Source: an uncultured Oscillospiraceae bacterium
GTDB taxonomy: Bacteria > Bacillota > Clostridia > Saccharofermentanales > Saccharofermentanaceae
Direction of reading: 5' to 3'
Assembly (NCBI GenBank): GCA_964499575.1
Contig: CAZCLK010000001.1
Coordinates: forward strand, 18,330 to 82,329
DNA: 64,000 nucleotides
Part shown: positions 40,409-63,447 of the stretch, piece after piece
Numbering within the stretch: position 1 is the first letter of the stretch
How the letters are laid out: each line of letters begins with the position of its first letter
The notes under the pieces: model-generated
The model's database searches: none
Told to the model about the DNA's origin: nothing
The model's input: only the letters and a program-made list of their open reading frames with translations
Program-made: the position numbers and the translations under genes

Positions 40409-40491
40409 GCGGACGTGGTGGAATTGGCAGACACGCTGGATTTAGGTTCCAGTGCGAGAGCATGCAGGTTCAAGTCCTGTCGTCCGCACCA
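40409..40491 (+). tRNA. tRNA-Leu (anticodon UAG), class II with long variable arm, CCA encoded
   Basis: Acceptor GCGGACG/CGTCCGC, anticodon stem CTGGA/TCCAG with loop TTTAGGT, variable arm TGCGAGAGCAT, T-arm GCAGG-TTCAAGT-CCTGT, discriminator A plus CCA. Confidence 0.9.
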
Positions 40492-50756: not shown

Positions 50757-51005
50757 AACAAAAAGCTCCCATCCCCTATATGGGACAAGAGCATAACGCC
50801 TGCGGTACCACCCAAATTGACCGTGATTATGAGGCACGGCCCACTTACTCCGCGTCGATTCGACGCGCTCCCCTGATAACGGGTGAAGTCCCCGTCAGCG
50901 ACTACTCGATTCGTGCGGCGCACGCATCTTTCGGGCTGCCCTCTCAGGCCCATTCTCTCTTCTTCCCGTGCCCTGTTCCCATCGTCCGGGGCTCTCTGTG
51001 ACGGT
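50757..51005 (-). promoter_or_regulatory. T-box riboswitch leader upstream of the TrpB-like gene
   Basis: The minus strand reads AAUUUGGGUGGUACCGCAGG (50820-50799), the canonical T-box sequence. Upstream are GAAGAAGAGAGAA (AGAGA-type stem I element), CCGUUA (F-box-like) and a stem III-like CGCGUCG/CGACGCG helix. Downstream is UCCCAU-AUAGGGG-AUGGGA followed by GCUUUUUGUUU. Confidence 0.8.
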
Positions 51006-51013
51006 TCTTTGAA

Positions 51014-51042
51014 AAGATACTATCCCTGATCAACGGTTTCAA
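51014..51042 (-). promoter_or_regulatory. Candidate promoter for the T-box leader
   Basis: The minus strand reads TTGAAA, a 17-nt spacer, then TATCTT, immediately upstream of the leader. Confidence 0.35.
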
Positions 51043-56351: not shown

Positions 56352-56957
56352 TTACGCTCTTTTTGTCATGATTTGATCGACGATTCCGTATTTTACGGCC
56401 TCTTCGGCGCTCATCCAGTTATCGCGGTCCATGTCCTTTTCGATGGTCTCAAGCGGCTGACCGGTCATTTCGGCCATCAGCTCGTTGAGCTTCTTTTTGG
56501 TTTTCTCGATATGTTTGGCCGCGATCAGGATATCCGTAGCCTGTCCTTGCGTACCGCCCGAGGGTTGATGGATCATCACCTCGGCATTCGGCAAGATAAA
56601 TCGCTTGCCCTTGGTTCCCGCCGCCAGAAGGAAGGCGCCCATCGACGCGGACATCCCCATACAGATTGTCTGAACGTTCGGTTTGATGTGCTTCATCGTA
56701 TCGAAGATCATCAGACCGTCCGATACCGATCCTCCGGGGCTGTTGATGTAGAATTGAATATCCTTATCCGGATCTTCCGCTTCCAAAAACAGTAGTTGCG
56801 CCGTAATGAGGCTGGCGGTGATATGATTGACCTCCTCGGAAAGGATGACGATCCGCTCCTTTAAGAGTCTTGAAAAGATGTCGTACGCGCGTTCTCCGCG
56901 GTTGGTCGTCTCGATAACTGTCGGTACCAGATTGGACTTGATGTTCTCGTTTGTCAT
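56352..56957 (-). CDS. clpP: ATP-dependent Clp protease proteolytic subunit ClpP
   Basis: 201 aa. [19 protein letters not shown], catalytic Ser in [11 protein letters not shown], His in MIHQPSGG, Asp in DRDNWMSA. Confidence 0.93.
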
Positions 56958-58723: not shown

Positions 58724-58750
58724 TTAGCACTCCTAATCATCGAGTGCTAA
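58724..58750 (-). promoter_or_regulatory. CIRCE operator (perfect consensus)
   Basis: TTAGCACTC-ctaatcatc-GAGTGCTAA, the 9-N9-9 inverted repeat that HrcA binds, about 80 nt upstream of the hrcA start. Confidence 0.95.
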
Positions 58751-58754
58751 AACC

Positions 58755-58783
58755 AATTTAGCACCAATGTCAAAGAATGTCAA
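58755..58783 (-). promoter_or_regulatory. Candidate sigma-A promoter of the hrcA operon
   Basis: The minus strand reads TTGACA, a 17-nt spacer, then TAAATT. CIRCE begins 4 nt downstream of the -10. A second TTGACA copy lies 10 nt closer. Confidence 0.5.
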
Positions 58784-58818: not shown

Positions 58819-59967
58819 CTACACAAAGCTCCGGAAAACCTCGTTGCCGAAGTCCAGTCCCTTCTGACTTAAAAACCAAAAGTCCCCGGTTTTTTCGATC
58901 AGGCCAAGCAGAAGGAGCGACTCCAGTTCAGACCCGAAAATCTCCTCTGCGGGAACCCCGAAACGCCCCATAAATCCGGTCGCCGATATCCCGGATATTT
59001 TACGAAACCCAAGGAGCATATACTCTTTCATTTCGGCTTTGCCGTCGATCCGCTCGCACTCCTCGCGGATTGCCTCGAGTCGCGGAGGGTCTTCGAATAA
59101 TGCCTCGATATACCGCCGGATATTCTTCGTGTTTCCGATCCGCTGTCCGCCGGTATATGAGTGCGCGCCGCACCCGAAGCCGTAATACGGAAGCGCATCC
59201 CAATAAACCGTGTTGTGGCGGCTTTCAAAGCCCGTCTTCGCATAATTACTGATTTCATAGTGGCGATATCCGGCGCCGGTCAAAAGACGCCGGGTCGTAT
59301 GATACATATCCCGTTCTTCCTCATCGGAAGGAAGCAAATCGGGGCGTCCGGAATACTTATCGAAAAACCGGGTGCCCTCTTCAAGGCTGAGCGAATAGCA
59401 TGAGACGTGAGGGACACGCAACTCCGTCAGGTGCAAAACAGAACCGATGACATCCTCGAGCGTCTGTTCCGGGACACCGAGCATCAGATCGCAGGATATG
59501 TTCGAAAAACCGGCTTCCCCGGCAAGCGCGATTGCATGATCGGCGTCCCGCGATGTATGTATTCTTCCGAGCCCTCGAAGGACACGGTCCGAAAAGCTTT
59601 GAACACCGACCGAGAGCCGGTTGAAACCGACCTCTTTATATCCCTGAAGATGAGATTTTGTAACCGTGCCCGGATTGACCTCTATCGTAATCTCTGCCGC
59701 ATCATGAACGCCGAAAGAATTTCGCAGTTTTTCGAGGATCCTTCCGGCTTCTTCGGGCGTCAGGAGTGACGGTGTCCCTCCGCCCAGATAAACGGAAGAG
59801 AGCGGTCCGCCCGGGGTATGCCCGGATGTCCGATCGATCTCGCGAAGGAGCGCCGTAAGGTAAGGGTCCTTAAGGCCGGTTACTTGATCAAACGACGTGA
59901 AATCACAGTAGGGACATTTTCGAACACAAAAAGGGACGTGGACATACGCGGCGGAACATGCGTTCAT
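58819..59967 (-). CDS. hemW: Radical SAM heme chaperone HemW (HemN-like, oxygen-independent coproporphyrinogen oxidase family)
   Basis: 382 aa. YVHVPFCVRKCPYCDF (CxxxCxxC) and GGGTPS. It sits upstream of hrcA, as in the Bacillus lepA-hemN-hrcA arrangement. Confidence 0.9.
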   Translation of the reverse strand: MNACSAAYVHVPFCVRKCPYCDFTSFDQVTGLKDPYLTALLREIDRTSGHTPGGPLSSVYLGGGTPSLLTPEEAGRILEKLRNSFGVHDAAEITIEVNPGTVTKSHLQGYKEVGFNRLSVGVQSFSDRVLRGLGRIHTSRDADHAIALAGEAGFSNISCDLMLGVPEQTLEDVIGSVLHLTELRVPHVSCYSLSLEEGTRFFDKYSGRPDLLPSDEEERDMYHTTRRLLTGAGYRHYEISNYAKTGFESRHNTVYWDALPYYGFGCGAHSYTGGQRIGNTKNIRRYIEALFEDPPRLEAIREECERIDGKAEMKEYMLLGFRKISGISATGFMGRFGVPAEEIFGSELESLLLLGLIEKTGDFWFLSQKGLDFGNEVFRSFV

Positions 59968-60638
59968 GCGTTCAGTCGCTCCGCTTCTTTACGGACAATA
60001 TAGGACAAATAGGAGGCAAACCGTTTAAAACTCGGGGAGCCGTTATGGTCCGGATCCATATACTCGGAAATCCGAAGTGCCCATTCGTGCTTATATTGTC
60101 CGATTGCCGGATAACCGACGCGGATTACACGTTCCGCCTTGTGGCCGAGGAGGCATCGGCAAAGGATTTCCCACGTACCGCAGACACTGTCCTGTTCATA
60201 ATCTTCAAGCACAGACATGTCCGCCTCGGGGTATGCCGTAAGCAACGCTTTTTTATCCCCGATGAGCCAGGACTCGGTCTCCTCGACGCAAAGTCCGATG
60301 ACAAACGGTAAAGACGGCGCATGCCTCTTGCATAGAGTAATCAATTGATCCTTCAGTTCGGCCGGCGAGTTGTAGTCGGAATCCATCACCACGACCAGCA
60401 CAAGATCCGTACCCGCATAAATTCTGTCGTAGGCCCGCAGTTTGGCGGGAAGAAGATCCAGAAGTCCGGAAGCTTCCGGCTTCGGCGGCTGGTAGGGATT
60501 AGCCGGAACATCCCCTCTGCCCCGGTGCGGACGGACGGATATCTCGTAATCCGAAATGATCGGCGCGAGAATCCTATTCATCAAACGGTTCATCACAACG
60601 GCACCCGACCGGTCTTCCGTCAATACCTCAAAACGCAT
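59964..60638 (-). CDS. DUF4276-like protein with TOPRIM-like Glu/DxD motifs (putative nuclease effector)
   Basis: The ATG at 60638 has GGAG upstream; an alternative GTG lies at 60647. Motifs are RFEVLTEDRSG, LVLVVVMDSDYN and GLCVEETESWLIGD. The stop overlaps the hemW start (ATGA). The family call is from motif recollection. Confidence 0.65.
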   Translation of the reverse strand: MRFEVLTEDRSGAVVMNRLMNRILAPIISDYEISVRPHRGRGDVPANPYQPPKPEASGLLDLLPAKLRAYDRIYAGTDLVLVVVMDSDYNSPAELKDQLITLCKRHAPSLPFVIGLCVEETESWLIGDKKALLTAYPEADMSVLEDYEQDSVCGTWEILCRCLLGHKAERVIRVGYPAIGQYKHEWALRISEYMDPDHNGSPSFKRFASYLSYIVRKEAERLNA

Positions 60639-60653
60639 TTTTGTCACTCCGGC

Positions 60654-61865
60654 TCAATCGTCAAAATGCCCCGAATACCAAATCGCACCCATTCCGACGC
60701 CCTGACGGTACATTTCCGATACAATGGGATCGGCTCCCGCGCAACGGATATCGACAGAGTCCGCATCTTCACTCTCCGCTCGTTTAAAAATCCACACCTC
60801 ATCGGGCGCCATCGCCTCAAGGATGTACGGATTGTGCGTGGAAAATATGATTTGAGAAAACGGATGCCTTATCGTATAGTCGCGGAATTCCGCCGACAGC
60901 ACGTCAACCATGTCGTGGTACAATTCCAGATCCGGAGTTTCCACGCAAATCAGGGGGCGCGGCATGGGGTCATTCAAGAGAAGCAGGTAAAGAAAGAGCC
61001 GGTTCGGGCTGTCGCGGAAGTCGTCGGGTAATTTATCTTTGACTTTGCCGACCGCCGGGATCTTCTCCTCGATCCGGTCCATCAGCCGCTGATAATAGTG
61101 AGGGTCCTCTTCTTTCAGATATTGAAGGACATTATTGACATTGGATCCGTCGCTATTCAGGTGTTTGTGGCCGCCGGGAGCTATCTGCTGTTTCGATCCG
61201 TTGTTGATCTTCGGACTGCTGAACCGGCAAAAAAACCAATGCGTGATCTCCCGTTGCAATGCATTCAGCACGGCGCACTGAAGGATGTTGCCGTAAGATC
61301 TCAAAGCAGAGTGCCCGGAATCCATGATATCGGCATCGATCAGCATTTCCCCGAACATGACTTTACCTTTGCCTTTTTGAACATCGAGCACGGTAATAAA
61401 GTTGTCTTCCTTATTCGGATTGATTCCGTAACGGACTTTCTCGGAGTCATACGAGGGCTTGCCGTACGGATCCGGGATCAGGGAAAAGCAATAGGACAGA
61501 TAGAATTTGTCGGGTAACGCCGGGTTGTGTCCGTTCGACATGATAAACATCAGTTCAAATTCCATCCGGTCCGCTCCCGCCGACAGGAGTTTCGAAAAAC
61601 CGGGACGTCCGCGGATGACGGAAGCCTCCGCGCAGCCCTTGGTAACGCAATCGGAAATAAATGAAAGACAATCGAAAAATGAACTCTTTCCGGACTGATT
61701 CCGACCGATGATCGCGTTAAGGCTGGTCAGAGGAACGACCGGGGATATGCCGGCGGACATCAATTGGCCGTTTTGAACCCGGCCGGATAAAAAATCCCCG
61801 AGAAGCGCTCCCGCGCTGTCGTCGAGGAATAATTTGGCATTTCGGATCCGGATTCCCAACAGCAT
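60654..61865 (-). CDS. ABC-type (AAA_21-like) ATPase
   Basis: 403 aa. Walker A GRNQSGKSS, signature-like LNSDGSNV, Walker B region PLICVETPDLELYH, H-loop IIFSTHNPYIL. AAGGAG lies 7 nt upstream of the ATG. Confidence 0.8.
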   Translation of the reverse strand: MLLGIRIRNAKLFLDDSAGALLGDFLSGRVQNGQLMSAGISPVVPLTSLNAIIGRNQSGKSSFFDCLSFISDCVTKGCAEASVIRGRPGFSKLLSAGADRMEFELMFIMSNGHNPALPDKFYLSYCFSLIPDPYGKPSYDSEKVRYGINPNKEDNFITVLDVQKGKGKVMFGEMLIDADIMDSGHSALRSYGNILQCAVLNALQREITHWFFCRFSSPKINNGSKQQIAPGGHKHLNSDGSNVNNVLQYLKEEDPHYYQRLMDRIEEKIPAVGKVKDKLPDDFRDSPNRLFLYLLLLNDPMPRPLICVETPDLELYHDMVDVLSAEFRDYTIRHPFSQIIFSTHNPYILEAMAPDEVWIFKRAESEDADSVDIRCAGADPIVSEMYRQGVGMGAIWYSGHFDD

Positions 61866-61886: not shown

Positions 61887-62378
61887 CTACTTGAGTTCTT
61901 TCTTATTTTTCTGAACCTTGACGAGCATCTCCGTCAACTGGTTCTCGATCTCCGTCAGTCGCTGTCTGGCGTAATCGGTTGATGCGACGCGGATCTGCCA
62001 AGCGGCCTGATTTGCCTGTTCCACGGTCGATTGAGCCATTTCCCTTGCCCGAAGCGTAATCTCATGCTCATCGACCATGATCGCGGAACGCTGCTCCGTC
62101 TCACGCAATATACTTTCCGCCTTCTGGCGGGCACTGGCGACAATCTGGCGGTTCTGCTCGACAATCCAACGCGCCTGACGAACCTCCTCGGGTAAATTCT
62201 CCCGGATCTGATTGATCCAATAGAGAACATCCTGCCGGTCTACGACACAGTTGTCCGAAAAAGGAAGCCCCTTGGCTTGAGTAACCGTTTCCTGAAGCTG
62301 ATCGAGCAATTCAAACAAATCCGTCTCGCTGGATCGATTGGAACGGACATTGTCCTGCGCTCCATACTCCTCCATCAA
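61887..62378 (-). CDS. Hypothetical coiled-coil protein
   Basis: 163 aa, Gln/Glu/Arg-rich heptad-like sequence (EQNRQIVASARQKAESILRETEQRS...). The start overlaps the coaD stop by 4 nt. Confidence 0.55.
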   Translation of the reverse strand: MMEEYGAQDNVRSNRSSETDLFELLDQLQETVTQAKGLPFSDNCVVDRQDVLYWINQIRENLPEEVRQARWIVEQNRQIVASARQKAESILRETEQRSAIMVDEHEITLRAREMAQSTVEQANQAAWQIRVASTDYARQRLTEIENQLTEMLVKVQKNKKELK

Positions 62379-62869
62379 TTCTCCGCCTTCCTTTCAATGA
62401 TCTTGGACTGTACAAAATCGACAATCTTCGGATTCACCATTTTCGAAATGTCTCCGCCGAAAAGGGCAACTTCTTTGATTGTAGATGAACTGATATATAC
62501 CATATCCGTACTGCACGGGAGAAGAATCAGGTCATATTCCGGGAGAAGGAGTTTGTTGACGGCCGCCATTTCCGCTTCGATGCGATAATCCGACTCGCCC
62601 CGCAGACCGCGAACTACGGCGGAAGCTCCGAGTTTACTGTACAGATCCACCAGAAGCCCTTCAAACATGATCACTTCGACGCCGTCGATTCCCGAAAGAC
62701 ACATCTTGGCCATGGAAACGCGTTCTTCGGTCGTAAATGCGGGCGCTTTGCCGGGGTTGCTCAAAACAGCCACCACCAGACGGTCACAAAGAGCGGCTGC
62801 CCTCCGCGCGATGTCCTGATGCCCCAGAGAAAAGGGATCGAAGCTTCCGGGGAACAAAAAGGTCTTCAC
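62375..62869 (-). CDS. coaD: Phosphopantetheine adenylyltransferase
   Basis: 164 aa. FPGSFDPFSLGHQDI (T/HxGH-type motif) and ISSSTIKE. Confidence 0.93.
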   Translation of the reverse strand: MKTFLFPGSFDPFSLGHQDIARRAAALCDRLVVAVLSNPGKAPAFTTEERVSMAKMCLSGIDGVEVIMFEGLLVDLYSKLGASAVVRGLRGESDYRIEAEMAAVNKLLLPEYDLILLPCSTDMVYISSSTIKEVALFGGDISKMVNPKIVDFVQSKIIERKAEN

Positions 62870-62889
62870 GATATAACCCCCAAATCATC

Positions 62890-63447
62890 CTATCTGTTAT
62901 AAAATGTTAACAGAGTCGTTCCGTACTTACAACATCGGATCAATGTCAAGTTGATTACATTTCCCTCGAAGGTTGTATCGGCGGAATGCTCGATGATCAG
63001 CACGCCTCCTTCATTCAGAAGATCGTTTCCGGCGATCAGTTCAGTCGTTTTTTTGAACGCCGATGCGGCTTCCGCATAGGGCGGATCCATAAAAATGATA
63101 TCAAAACGCCTGTTTGAGTCCGCTAATTTTTTAATAGCGGAGTATACGTCCGAGATGACGATTTCGGTCTGCTCTTCGGCATGAAGTCTCTCGATATTGC
63201 TTTGAATGACGGCCGCGACGTTTCTACTGTGCTCGACCATGACCACCTCCGATGCGCCCCGGCTCAGTGCCTCAAGTCCGATTTGACCGCTTCCCGCAAA
63301 CAAGTCCAGAAAGCGCGCGCCCGGAATGCGCATCTGAAGGATCGAGAAAAGCGCTTCCTTGACCTTATCCGACGTCGGACGTGTTTTTTCGCCCTTCGGC
63401 GCGATTAAATGCGTGCCTTTATATTTTCCCGATACAACTCTGGGCAT
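62890..63447 (-). CDS. rsmD: 16S rRNA (guanine966-N2)-methyltransferase RsmD
   Basis: 185 aa. LDLFAGSGQIGLEALSRGA and the DPPY motif. Confidence 0.92.
   Translation of the reverse strand: MPRVVSGKYKGTHLIAPKGEKTRPTSDKVKEALFSILQMRIPGARFLDLFAGSGQIGLEALSRGASEVVMVEHSRNVAAVIQSNIERLHAEEQTEIVISDVYSAIKKLADSNRRFDIIFMDPPYAEAASAFKKTTELIAGNDLLNEGGVLIIEHSADTTFEGNVINLTLIRCCKYGTTLLTFYNR

What the first reader, a model, noticed from the sequence alone, without database searches (positions are those of the whole stretch)
59964..61865. ABC-ATPase + TOPRIM-like DUF4276 two-gene cassette: candidate uncharacterised defence/abortive-infection system
**ATPase.** 60654-61865 encodes an SMC/ABC-type ATPase. It has Walker A GRNQSGKSS, a signature-like LNSDGSNV, the Walker B region LICVETPDLELYH and the H-loop FSTHNPYIL. 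This is the AAA_21-like architecture used by OLD nucleases, PARIS AriA, AbiL/RloA-type proteins and Septu PtuA.

**Partner.** Six nt downstream of the ATPase stop, in an ORF open from GTG 60647 (ATG 60638 preferred), lies a ~225-aa protein. It opens with a strand plus Glu (RFEVLTEDRSG), has a hydrophobic strand ending in DxD (LVLVVVMDSDYN), and carries CVEETESWLIGD. I recognise this TOPRIM-like Glu/DxD layout as DUF4276.

**Why it matters.** ATPase plus small TOPRIM effector pairs are established anti-phage modules. I know of no experimental characterisation of the DUF4276 version.

**Context.** The pair sits between two universally conserved housekeeping strings (recG-rsmD-coaD and hemW-hrcA-grpE-dnaK-dnaJ). 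No mobility gene is present.
Basis: partly seen in the sequence, partly recalled or inferred. Interest (0 to 1): 0.8.

Follow-up and report, generated by a model that had tools for sequence, protein, structure and literature searches.

The report
Inherited ATPase–nuclease pair fused to hemW
The two genes are a real ATPase plus nuclease-like pair from a known candidate anti-phage family (PADLOC "HEC-01"), but in this group of gut and digester Clostridia they are inherited from parent to offspring as part of a housekeeping operon, which is unusual for a defence system.

Summary
**Observation:** confirmed. The region holds a 403-aa ABC-type ATPase (60654-61865, −) and a 224-aa DUF4276/Toprim-like protein (59964-60638, −).

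**Already known:**
- Both match PADLOC's candidate system HEC-01 (E 3e-65 and 2e-61).
- HEC-01 has been phage-tested twice: negative in Payne 2024, protective in a 2025 cold-seep study.
- The same domain pair is Mad3/Mad4 of MADS.

**New here:**
- In 80/80 species-representative genomes, and in further loci down to 40 % identity, the order ATPase–TOP–hemW is fixed.
- The TOP stop overlaps the hemW start.
- The pair co-diverges with hemW, hrcA, coaD and rsmD (Mantel r ≈ 0.9).
- dN/dS is 0.05-0.11, with no fast-evolving sensor region.
- Base composition matches the flanks, and no mobile or defence genes lie nearby.
- Distant relatives (31-37 %) sit in a prophage, on a conjugative plasmid, or elsewhere on the chromosome.
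- The ATPase in this lineage has lost the ABC catalytic Glu (ICV-E-T-PD) and the signature Gly.
- Sampling by the neighbouring gene found two nested lineages with clean deletions, so the pair is dispensable.

**Verdict:** a new variant of a known kind. Whether it acts in immunity or has been exapted is unresolved.

The parts
60654..61865 (-). ABC-type ATPase, 403 aa (HEC-01A-like; AAA_21)
   Evidence: ORF. Pfam AAA_21 at 56 bits against a cut-off of 27. PADLOC HEC-01A PDLC04182 at 2.6e-65. AF2 model with pLDDT 80 and pTM 0.85. Foldseek best hits are GajA, OLD, Smc head and PtuA. dN/dS is 0.045 against L009.
61683..61706 (-). Walker A, GRNQSGKS (aa 54-61)
   Evidence: G54, N56, G59 and K60 are invariant in 29 homologues. 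Coordinates were verified.
61137..61163 (-).
   Evidence: H235, L236, G240 and N242 are invariant. The motif is also conserved in mobile relatives, which carry a separate canonical signature downstream.
61002..61013 (-). True ABC-signature position, degenerate here: DSPN (aa 285-288) instead of SDGT
   Evidence: Alignment with mobile relatives. S/K-P-[DN] is found throughout the coaD-flanked lineage. S286 and P287 are invariant in A2.
60930..60953 (-). Walker B strand LICV-E309, then T310 in place of the catalytic Glu, then P-D312
   Evidence: β-strand 305-309 in the model. Mobile relatives read I-E-E-P-E. The catalytic position is T/S/A in every locus of the coaD-flanked lineage.
60825..60842 (-). 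H-loop STHNPY (aa 342-347)
   Evidence: T343 and H344 are invariant and kept in all relatives.
59964..60638 (-). DUF4276/Toprim-like protein 'TOP', 224 aa (HEC-01B-like), predicted metal-dependent nuclease
   Evidence: ORF. PADLOC HEC-01B PDLC04205 at 1.7e-61. AF2 model with pLDDT 93.9 and pTM 0.89, with a β-α-β-α-β-α-β core plus a helical domain. dN/dS is 0.106.
60612..60629 (-). β1 and the following acidic pair: E4-V-L-T-E8-D9
   Evidence: E8 is invariant in 66 family members at 26-56 % identity. E4, E8 and D9 are invariant in the clade. E8 sits directly after strand 2-7.
60375..60383 (-). DxD motif, D86-S-D88, at the end of β3
   Evidence: D86 and D88 are invariant in 66 family members. Strand 79-86 is seen in the model.
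60267..60284 (-). Second acidic cluster after β4: E119-E120-T-E122-S-W124
   Evidence: E122 and W124 are invariant and E120 is at least 90 % conserved in 66 members.
59964..59967 (-). ATGA overlap of the TOP stop (TGA) and the hemW start (ATG): translational coupling
   Evidence: Sequence. Overlaps of −8, −4 or −1 nt occur in 70 of 81 related loci, and the gap is at most 14 nt in 80 of 81.
58819..59967 (-). hemW (radical-SAM haem chaperone), the invariant downstream partner
   Evidence: NCBIfam TIGR00539 at 320 bits against a cut-off of 205. It lies directly downstream of TOP in 79 of 80 species loci.
61887..62378 (-). Conserved 163-aa coiled-coil gene (cc163) directly upstream; same transcription unit
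   Evidence: ORF. No family found. It is adjacent to the ATPase in 47 of 60 loci of this lineage. dN/dS is 0.02. Only 119 homologue clusters exist.
62375..63447 (-). coaD and rsmD, upstream genes of the same tightly packed same-strand unit
   Evidence: NCBIfam equivalogs pass their cut-offs. Gaps are −4 to 21 nt, and no convincing terminator was found.
58724..58783 (-). Boundary of the unit: σ70-like promoter (TTGACA-17-TAAATT) plus a perfect CIRCE operator (TTAGCACTC-N9-GAGTGCTAA) for hrcA-grpE-clpP-dnaK

Best explanation
**What it is.** This is a two-gene module of the HEC-01 family. An ABC (OLD/Gabija/SMC-head-like) ATPase is paired with a DUF4276, Toprim-like, metal-dependent nuclease.

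**History (shown).**
- In the ancestor of a large clade of Oscillospiraceae-type Clostridia (Saccharofermentans, Mageeibacillus and relatives), the pair became fixed immediately upstream of hemW.
- It has been inherited vertically since then, as part of the rsmD-coaD-cc163-ATPase-TOP-hemW unit.
- hemW translation is coupled to TOP.
- The pair is retained in most lineages but has been cleanly deleted at least twice, so it is beneficial but dispensable.

**How it most likely works (inferred by analogy with PARIS and OLD-type systems).**
- The ATPase binds ATP, dimerises or oligomerises, and holds or gates the nuclease.
- A signal sensed by the ATPase releases or activates the nuclease.
- The nuclease uses E8, D86/D88 and E120/E122 to bind Mg2+ and cut nucleic acid. 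RNA is as likely a target as DNA.
- In this lineage the ATPase has lost the catalytic Glu and the signature Gly. It is therefore predicted to act as an ATP-binding switch rather than a hydrolysing motor.

**Biological role.** My leading reading is a stably inherited stress or infection-response (abortive-type) module. I put this at about 0.45 on its own, only slightly ahead of an exapted cellular role.

**Confidence by layer.** The value of 0.5 applies to the whole composite.
- Family identity: about 0.95.
- Vertical inheritance: about 0.9.
- Gated-nuclease mechanism: about 0.55.
- Immune role: about 0.45.
For: **Family identity.**
- PADLOC HEC-01A at 2.6e-65 and HEC-01B at 1.7e-61.
- Mobile relatives hit the same sub-models.
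- The ATPase fold matches GajA, OLD, Smc head and PtuA.

**Nuclease-type active site.**
- E8, D86, D88 and E122 are invariant in 66 members at 26-56 % identity.
- They sit after β1, β3 and β4 of a confident model with pLDDT 93.9.
- The literature calls HEC-01B and DUF4276 Toprim with an OLD-like metal site.

**Vertical inheritance.**
- ATPase-TOP-hemW is intact in 80/80 species genomes. It is also intact at 44 % and 40 % identity with a different upstream flank.
- Mantel r is 0.88-0.91 against hemW, hrcA, coaD and rsmD. Housekeeping-versus-housekeeping controls give 0.86-0.88.
- dS is about 1 for all genes, and dN/dS is 0.045 (ATPase) and 0.106 (TOP).
- GC and GC3 equal the flanks.

**Operon embedding.**
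- An ATGA overlap joins TOP and hemW, conserved in 70/81 loci.
- A separate CIRCE-controlled promoter for hrcA lies downstream.

**Degenerate ATPase site.**
- E-[T/S/A]-P-D and S/K-P-[DN] occur throughout the lineage, against EEPE and SDG in mobile relatives.
- In PARIS, the equivalent E393A mutant is ATPase-defective, while ATP binding is what trigger recognition needs.

**Accessory or immune leaning.**
- Two nested, independent clean deletions exist.
- Relatives sit in a lambdoid prophage between Q and the lysis genes, and on a conjugative plasmid.
- One HEC-01 representative protected E. coli against phage.
Against: **Against an immune role.**
- No direct functional data exist for this clade.
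- The one HEC-01 tested by the family's discoverers gave no protection.
- Long-term fixed synteny, co-divergence and uniform purifying selection are atypical for defence genes. This includes the variable insert, with dN/dS 0.11 over 25 independent pairs.
- AriA sensor pores, by contrast, are poorly conserved.
- No defence or mobile genes lie within ±10 kb.

**Against the mechanism.**
- Loss of the catalytic Glu departs from PARIS and HEC-04, where ATPase-motif mutants lose defence.
- The Toprim fold was not recovered by Foldseek: no hit at E ≤ 1e-3 in the PDB or BFVD. PDB profile searches and hhalign against P2 Old also failed.
- No complex model was made.
Confidence: 0.5

Rival explanations
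1. **Exapted cellular function.** The module descends from a mobile HEC-01-type system. In this clade it has been domesticated into a non-essential, conserved host function. One candidate is a regulated Toprim RNase or DNase acting on host RNA or DNA, on the precedent of RNase M5 or RecF-RecR. It would be co-expressed with hemW, next to the ribosome-biogenesis and heat-shock genes.
For: - Housekeeping-like evolution: fixed locus in 80/80 species genomes.
- Mantel r of about 0.9 with housekeeping genes.
- dN/dS of 0.05-0.11, with no fast-evolving region.
- TOP is better conserved than hemW and rsmD.
- Conserved translational coupling to hemW.
- No defence or mobile neighbours.
- Repeated loss of the ATPase catalytic base, suggesting a changed mode of action.
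- Loss of two insert segments present in mobile relatives.
- Much weaker fit to the PADLOC sub-model than mobile relatives: 219 bits in two stretches against about 650 bits.
Against: - At least two independent clean deletions in thriving lineages show it is dispensable.
- No specific host substrate or pathway is indicated.
- No functional link between HemW and nucleases is known.
- In L062 the pair is separated from hemW by an insertion.
- All nuclease residues match those of the mobile, presumably immune, relatives.
Confidence: 0.3
2. **First reader's reading.** This is a hitherto uncharacterised anti-phage or abortive-infection cassette of the ordinary, horizontally mobile, defence-island kind. 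It merely happens to sit between housekeeping operons.
For: - PADLOC would call it HEC-01.
- ABC ATPase plus Toprim pairs are established defence modules: PARIS, OLD, Gabija, AbiL and MADS3-4.
- Relatives occur on a prophage and a conjugative plasmid.
Against: - It is not uncharacterised as a family. HEC-01 has been named, modelled and tested twice.
- It is not mobile here. There is the same locus in all carriers, co-divergence with neighbours, native composition and no MGE genes.
- The insertions that do occur around it are metabolic genes, not defence genes.
Confidence: 0.08
3. **Selfish retention.** The pair persists mainly as an addiction or toxin-antitoxin-like module, with a nuclease toxin held by the ATPase. 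It also persists because hemW expression became dependent on read-through and translational coupling from it. It would not provide a function of its own.
For: - Pfam describes AAA_21 as a putative AbiEii, type IV TA-associated domain.
- In PARIS, AriA sequesters a toxic AriB.
- The TOP-hemW start/stop overlap is conserved.
Against: - Addiction does not explain purifying selection as strong as on coaD and grpE across the whole of both proteins.
- Clean deletions leave hemW functional, with its own upstream region.
- TA modules are normally patchy and mobile.
Confidence: 0.07

Closest known systems
HEC-01 (Hma-embedded candidate 1; PADLOC-DB; Payne et al. 2024, bioRxiv 10.1101/2024.01.29.577857)
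   Same: - Two adjacent same-strand genes: an ABC ATPase followed by a DUF4276/Toprim-like protein.
- The best PADLOC models for both proteins are HEC-01A and HEC-01B.
- Mobile relatives hit the same sub-models, PDLC04182 and PDLC04205.
- The acidic motifs are the same.
   Different: - It is not embedded in Hma/MADS, a defence island or an MGE.
- It is fixed upstream of hemW and vertically inherited.
- The ATPase catalytic Glu and signature Gly are lost, and two insert segments are missing.
- The fit to the sub-model is much weaker (219 against about 650 bits).
MADS Mad3/Mad4 (methylation-associated defence system; 'MADS3-4' in the PARIS paper, PMC11464382)
   Same: The domain pair is the same, an AAA_15/21 ATPase plus DUF4276. 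There are weak hits to the mad3 models: PADLOC 1e-7 and NCBIfam 2e-12.
   Different: - NCBIfam MAD3 scores 46.9 bits against a cut-off of 420.
- No methyltransferase or other mad genes are nearby.
- The module here is standalone, inside a housekeeping operon.
PARIS (AriA ABC ATPase + AriB DUF4435 Toprim nuclease)
   Same: - The logic is the same: a separate ABC ATPase and a small Toprim effector.
- There are weak AriA model hits of about 1e-12.
- PARIS supplies the mechanistic template used here: ATP-dependent trigger sensing, then release of the nuclease, then tRNA cleavage.
   Different: - The effector is DUF4276, not DUF4435, and has no AriB hit.
- AriA is not among the top 50 structural matches.
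- AriA has a catalytic Glu (E393) and variable sensor pores. This ATPase has neither.
OLD-family nucleases / Gabija GajA (ATPase and Toprim fused)
   Same: These are the closest solved structures for the ATPase: GajA 8x5i at 7e-11 and Thermus OLD 6p74 at 1e-9. They share the Glu/DxD metal-site logic.
   Different: - There the domains are fused in one chain, whereas here they are two genes.
- TOP shows no significant sequence or Foldseek match to OLD Toprim domains.
AbiL / RloA-RloB type pairs
   Same: - An AAA_21-type ATPase (AbiLi model at 1e-14) is paired with a small Toprim-like partner.
- The only suggestive structural hit for TOP is a phage 'RloB-like protein', with probability 0.90 and TM 0.40.
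- The Menshen paper groups DUF4276 and RloB as new Toprim members.
   Different: TOP has no RloB Pfam hit, and the structural hit is below significance.
RecF-RecR (housekeeping ABC ATPase + Toprim-domain partner). Own knowledge, not tested here
   Same: It is a precedent for a vertically inherited, non-immune ABC ATPase working with a Toprim-fold partner.
   Different: No detectable homology was sought or found. It is named only as a functional precedent for the exaptation rival.

Membership tests
HEC-01 (PADLOC candidate system) | Protein A matches a HEC-01A ATPase model | tested here: met
   PDLC04182 at 2.6e-65 and 219 bits, in two stretches.
HEC-01 (PADLOC candidate system) | Protein B matches a HEC-01B (DUF4276/Toprim) model | tested here: met
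   PDLC04205 at 1.7e-61, full length: residues 4-215 against profile positions 1-210 of 213.
HEC-01 (PADLOC candidate system) | The two genes are adjacent and co-oriented | tested here: met
   15 nt separate the ATPase stop from the TOP ATG, on the same strand. This holds in 79/80 related loci where the contig allows.
HEC-01 (PADLOC candidate system) | Found embedded in or next to other defence systems or on mobile elements (the basis of its discovery) | tested here: not met
   All neighbours are housekeeping genes. Insertions near the locus are metabolic genes. Only distant relatives at 31-35 % identity are on a prophage or plasmid.
HEC-01 (PADLOC candidate system) | Confers protection against phage | not testable with these tools
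   The literature is mixed for other representatives: none, and at least one phage.
Pfam DUF4276 (PF14103) | Score at or above the gathering threshold (30.2 bits) | tested here: not met
   - The window protein scores 18.3 bits, E 0.003.
- All 28 homologues give a hit, best 7e-8.
- Several close homologues are annotated as DUF4276 by NCBI or carry a precomputed PF14103 hit.
- The protein is therefore a divergent member by transitive homology.
Toprim fold | Conserved Glu after β1 and DxD after β3 of a β-α-β-α-β-α-β core | tested here: met
   Strands are at 2-7, 32-37, 79-86 and 112-117. E8, D86 and D88 are invariant in 66 members.
Toprim fold | Significant structural or profile similarity to a solved Toprim domain | tested here: not met
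   - Foldseek against the PDB gave no hit at E ≤ 1e-3 and TM < 0.3.
- BFVD gave none at that threshold.
- PDB profile searches found nothing.
- hhalign against P2 Old gave probability 2 %.
ABC ATPase (AAA_21; OLD/SMC-head type) | Pfam AAA_21 above threshold and an ABC-head fold | tested here: met
   AAA_21 scores 56.3 bits against a cut-off of 27. There are 125 PDB hits at E ≤ 1e-3, led by GajA, OLD, Smc head and PtuA.
ABC ATPase (AAA_21; OLD/SMC-head type) | Walker A GxxxxGK[ST], Walker B acidic residue and H-loop His | tested here: met
   G54, G59, K60, E309 and H344 are invariant.
ABC ATPase (AAA_21; OLD/SMC-head type) | Catalytic Glu directly after the Walker B acid, and a signature motif with Ser-x-Gly | tested here: not met
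   T310 replaces Glu, and DSPN replaces SDGT. The same holds in every locus of the coaD-flanked lineage, whereas mobile relatives have EE and SDG.
PARIS | AriA plus AriB (DUF4435) model matches | tested here: not met
   AriA hits are weak at about 1e-12, far below HEC-01A. TOP has no AriB or DUF4435 hit.
MADS | MAD3 equivalog score, plus accompanying methyltransferase and other mad genes | tested here: not met
   The score is 46.9 bits against a cut-off of 420. No such neighbours are present.

The most novel reading that the evidence does not exclude
A PARIS/OLD-like ABC-ATPase plus Toprim-nuclease immune module has been domesticated. In a whole clade of anaerobic Clostridia it now serves a conserved cellular function, not an immune one. 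That function would be a nucleotide-gated RNase or DNase, expressed in fixed stoichiometry with HemW next to the heat-shock and ribosome-biogenesis genes. Its ATPase would have been converted from a motor into an ATP-binding switch. This would be a documented case of a defence system turning into a host gene, rather than the usual opposite direction.
Probability: 0.3. Interest if true: 0.75.

Novelty: new variant of a known kind. Interest (0 to 1): 0.45.

Why it matters
**1. It corrects the record for this finding.**
- The cassette belongs to a named family, HEC-01, which is related to MADS Mad3/Mad4.
- That family already has published structure predictions and two phage tests.

**2. It shows a defence-type module behaving like a host gene.**
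- The module is a sensor ATPase plus a Toprim effector.
- It has been stable for a long evolutionary span: fixed locus, co-divergence, strong purifying selection, and translational coupling to hemW.
- It gives a natural series of ATPase active-site states: EE, then EN/EQ, then ET/ES/EA.
- It also gives natural knock-outs, the two clean deletions.
- This is ready-made material for asking two questions. Does ATP hydrolysis matter in this family? Do such modules get exapted?

**3. It has a practical consequence (inference).** PADLOC-based censuses will count one "HEC-01 defence system" in nearly every genome of this abundant rumen and digester clade. This could inflate the apparent defence repertoire. 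HEC-01 is reported among the most abundant candidate types in one metagenome survey.

Tried and rejected
- **Foldseek, TOP model against the PDB and BFVD.** No significant hit. Only a sub-threshold phage RloB-like protein appeared. Toprim could not be confirmed structurally.
- **PDB sequence-profile searches.** I used a narrow TOP profile (A1), a broad one (A3) and the ATPase profile (A2). Only Walker-A-level matches were found.
- **hhalign of A3 against the single P2 Old sequence.** Probability 2 %. The aligned stretch is Old's Toprim Glu strand. This is a hint, not evidence.
- **PHROGs.** Nothing for TOP.
- **hemW-first metagenome scan.** This was meant to measure in-clade retention. It showed only that the linkage is clade-specific: 2 of 63 loci carried TOP.
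- **'Strictly core or essential gene'.** I held this view. I rejected it after cc163-first sampling found two pair-less, nested lineages.
- **'Decaying remnant'.** Rejected on dN/dS of 0.05-0.11 and invariant active-site residues.
- **'Recent horizontal acquisition'.** Rejected on composition, synteny and the Mantel tests.
- **Arms-race signature in the ATPase insert.** Not found.
- **Rfam and tRNA scan.** Nothing near the locus.
- **The MANTIS preprint.** It only cites MADS and was not informative.
- **Model coordinates.** They are not exposed, so I could not measure clustering of the acidic residues.

Full report
**1.
- One search lists a 403-aa ORF at 60654-61865 (−). It also lists an ORF open from GTG 60647 to 59964 (−).
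- Homologues all begin M-[RH]-x-E, and a GGAG lies 8 nt before ATG 60638. The small protein is therefore 224 aa, starting at 60638.
- The ATPase passes Pfam AAA_21 (56 bits, cut-off 27).
- The small protein reaches only 18 bits on Pfam DUF4276 (cut-off 30.2). All 28 aligned homologues hit that model.
- PADLOC gives strong, specific matches: HEC-01A at 2.6e-65 and HEC-01B at 1.7e-61.
- The neighbours are confirmed as HemW, HrcA, CoaD and RsmD. A ClpP lies between grpE and dnaK.

**2. The family is already known.**
- HEC-01 was defined by Payne et al. (bioRxiv 10.1101/2024.01.29.577857) as an ABC ATPase plus a TOPRIM protein embedded in Hma systems.
- Their predicted structures showed an OLD-like metal site. 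Their representative protected against none of the phages tested.
- A cold-seep metagenome study reports that one HEC-01 cluster protected E. coli B against at least one of T4, T5 or T7.
- The Menshen paper classifies DUF4276 and RloB as new Toprim members and equates DUF4276 with Mad4 of MADS.
- The PARIS Nature paper lists 'MADS3-4' and AbiL among ABC-ATPase plus TOPRIM systems.

**3. Structure and motifs: the ATPase.**
- The model has pLDDT 80 and pTM 0.85.
- Its best solved-structure matches are Gabija GajA, Thermus OLD, Smc heads, retron-Eco8 OLD, Septu PtuA and Rad50. There are 125 hits at E ≤ 1e-3. The ABC/OLD-type call is confirmed.

**4. Structure and motifs: TOP.**
- The model is very confident (pLDDT 93.9, pTM 0.89). 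It has a β-α-β-α-β-α-β core followed by a helical domain.
- Across 66 family members at 26-56 % identity, the invariant residues are E8 (just after β1), D86 and D88 (end of β3), E122, W124, K183 and S203.
- That is the classical Toprim placement.
- I could not confirm the fold independently. Foldseek gave no significant PDB or BFVD hit. PDB profile searches gave nothing. hhalign against P2 Old was insignificant.
- I therefore treat Toprim as motif-consistent and literature-supported, not as shown here.

**5. The unexpected part: evolutionary behaviour.**
- A scan of one genome per species found at least 559 genomes with a relative. The best 80 are all Oscillospiraceae-type Clostridia MAGs or isolates, such as Saccharofermentans, Mageeibacillus and Ruminococcaceae KHP2.
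- In all 80 the ATPase is directly upstream of TOP, and hemW is directly downstream. The one exception is L062, which has a 1.7-kb insertion.
- The outer flanks are less stable than the trio:

| Flank | State | Loci |
|---|---|---|
| hrcA | Displaced | 15 |
| hrcA | Absent within about 9 kb | 14 |
| rsmD-coaD-cc163 | Displaced | 13 |
| rsmD-coaD-cc163 | Absent (NfeD-Band_7 where gene calls were read) | 10 |

- The inserted genes are ordinary metabolic or regulatory genes.
- The trio persists at 53 %, 44 % and 40 % TOP identity.
- At 37 % (Solidesulfovibrio) the pair lies elsewhere.
- At 31-35 % it lies in a lambdoid prophage between the antiterminator and lysis genes, and on a conjugative plasmid between T4SS genes and the relaxase.
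- These mobile relatives hit the same PADLOC sub-models far more strongly and keep the same TOP motifs.

**6. Co-divergence and selection.**
- Pairwise distance matrices of TOP and the ATPase correlate with those of hemW, hrcA, coaD and rsmD at Mantel r = 0.88-0.91 (p = 0.001). The housekeeping genes correlate with each other at 0.86-0.88.
- Against the closest relative, dS is about 1 for all genes. The dN/dS values are:

| Gene | dN/dS |
|---|---|
| ATPase | 0.045 |
| hrcA | 0.052 |
| coaD | 0.073 |
| TOP | 0.106 |
| grpE | 0.107 |
| hemW | 0.132 |

- dS is near saturation, so these values are approximate.
- Over 25 independent close pairs, the four ATPase regions give dN/dS of 0.056-0.113. 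This range includes the variable insert, so there is no arms-race signal.
- GC and GC3 match the flanks.

**7. Operon structure.**
- Genes from rsmD to hemW are packed on one strand with gaps of −4 to 21 nt. No convincing terminator was found.
- The TOP TGA overlaps the hemW ATG as ATGA. Such overlaps of −8, −4 or −1 nt occur in 70 of 81 loci.
- Downstream of hemW there is a σ70-like promoter and a perfect CIRCE operator for hrcA-grpE-clpP-dnaK. hemW therefore ends the unit that contains the pair.
- In other Firmicutes sampled hemW-first, lepA (or whiA-like genes) sits upstream of hemW. Only 2 of 63 such loci carried TOP.

**8. The ATPase active site is degenerate.**
- Mobile relatives have a canonical signature (MSDGTLK) followed by a Walker B with catalytic Glu (LCI-E-E-PE).
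- The window has DSPN and ICV-E-T-PD.
- The catalytic position is T, S or A in every locus of the coaD-flanked lineage. It is E, N or Q in the NfeD/Band_7-flanked lineage.
- Walker A, the Walker B acid and the H-loop His are invariant.
- In PARIS the equivalent E393A is ATPase-defective, and ATP binding (K39) is what trigger recognition needs.
- I infer an ATP-binding, hydrolysis-impaired switch.

**9. The pair is not strictly core.**
- All the sampling above was TOP-first, so I re-sampled by the neighbouring cc163 protein. It has 119 clusters and is clade-restricted.
- Of 52 hits on contigs of at least 9 kb, 29 share a contig length with contigs already known to carry the pair. This is a proxy.
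- I looked up six of the unmatched hits, a choice biased towards finding losses. Four carry ATPase-TOP-hemW.
- Two have cc163, then about 115 nt, then hemW, with no trace of the pair. One of these lineages is abundant.
- On an NJ tree of rsmD+coaD+cc163+hemW, both pair-less lineages are nested among carriers. They are not each other's nearest neighbours. No bootstrap was run.
- I conclude at least two independent clean deletions. The pair is ancestral and retained in roughly 85-95 % of sampled lineages, but it is dispensable.

**10. Interpretation.**

*Shown:*
- Family identity (HEC-01).
- An ABC-type ATPase fold.
- A conserved Glu/DxD/Glu constellation.
- Vertical inheritance with fixed synteny.
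- Purifying selection.
- Coupling to hemW.
- A degenerate ATPase site.
- Occasional loss.

*Inferred:*
- A PARIS/OLD-like mechanism in which the ATP-bound ATPase gates a metal-dependent nuclease.

*Unresolved:*
- The role of the pair. Dispensability and mobile relatives favour an accessory or immune function.
- The housekeeping-like evolutionary regime, the operon embedding and the altered ATPase favour exaptation.
- I put these at about 0.45 and 0.30.

**11. Verdict.**
- It belongs to a known candidate defence family.
- Here it represents a new, vertically inherited, hemW-coupled variant that lacks the catalytic Glu.
- Interest is moderate.

Noticed in passing
window 61887-62378 (−): - A 163-aa coiled-coil protein (cc163) lies between coaD and the ATPase.
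- It has no Pfam or NCBIfam family, only weak DivIVA- or ATP-synthase-B-like hits.
- It is the most conserved gene in the neighbourhood. dN/dS is 0.02, and identity is 94-97 % where TOP is 75-83 %.
- It is restricted to this clade, with 119 homologue clusters.
   Followed up: partly
window 56352-56957 (−): A ClpP protease gene (Pfam CLP_protease, 282 bits) sits between grpE and dnaK inside the CIRCE-controlled hrcA operon. This is an unusual member of that operon. It is also present in relatives L004-L006, L179 and L182.
   Followed up: partly
L050:7905-8702 (−); L080:5584-6405 (+): A family-less ORF of about 270 aa carries the motif RVKSKSE…GIPY.YE, which looks nuclease-like. It sits between cc163 and the ATPase in L050 (within a 1.2-kb insert) and in L080 (within a 3.7-kb insert). 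Inserts of 1.1-1.3 kb at the same junction in L052, L063, L069, L071, L073 and L085 were not inspected. It has no Pfam hit and could be a small selfish or accessory gene.
   Followed up: partly
PADLOC-DB models PDLC04144 and PDLC04143: The labels look swapped. PDLC04144, labelled 'HEC-01B', matches the ATPases at 96-326 bits. PDLC04143, labelled 'HEC-01A', matches the small Toprim-like proteins.
   Followed up: no
L062:10651-12347: This is the only locus of 80 where TOP and hemW are separated. The 1.7-kb insertion carries a 271-aa putative lipoprotein on the opposite strand.
   Followed up: no
L021, L025, L027, L029, L057, L058, L060, L068, L072, L091, L092 (ATPase Walker B): Within the hemW-linked clade the catalytic-Glu position varies by sub-lineage: E, N, Q, S, T or A. 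This suggests repeated independent loss of the ABC catalytic base.
   Followed up: partly
L007, L091-L093 (upstream of the ATPase): In a second sub-lineage the pair is preceded by NfeD plus a Band_7/SPFH protein instead of coaD-cc163. In both lineages the immediate upstream neighbour is a scaffold or coiled-coil type protein.
   Followed up: no
window 50778-51042 (−); 40409-40488 (+): There is a T-box leader (103 bits) and a tRNA gene. Both are unrelated to the finding.
   Followed up: no
L112, L166, L104, L116, L108 (upstream of hemW): In hemW loci outside the clade, lepA lies directly upstream of hemW, the canonical Firmicutes arrangement. In the clade studied here, the ATPase-TOP pair occupies the slot lepA holds elsewhere. 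Where lepA went was not examined.
   Followed up: no
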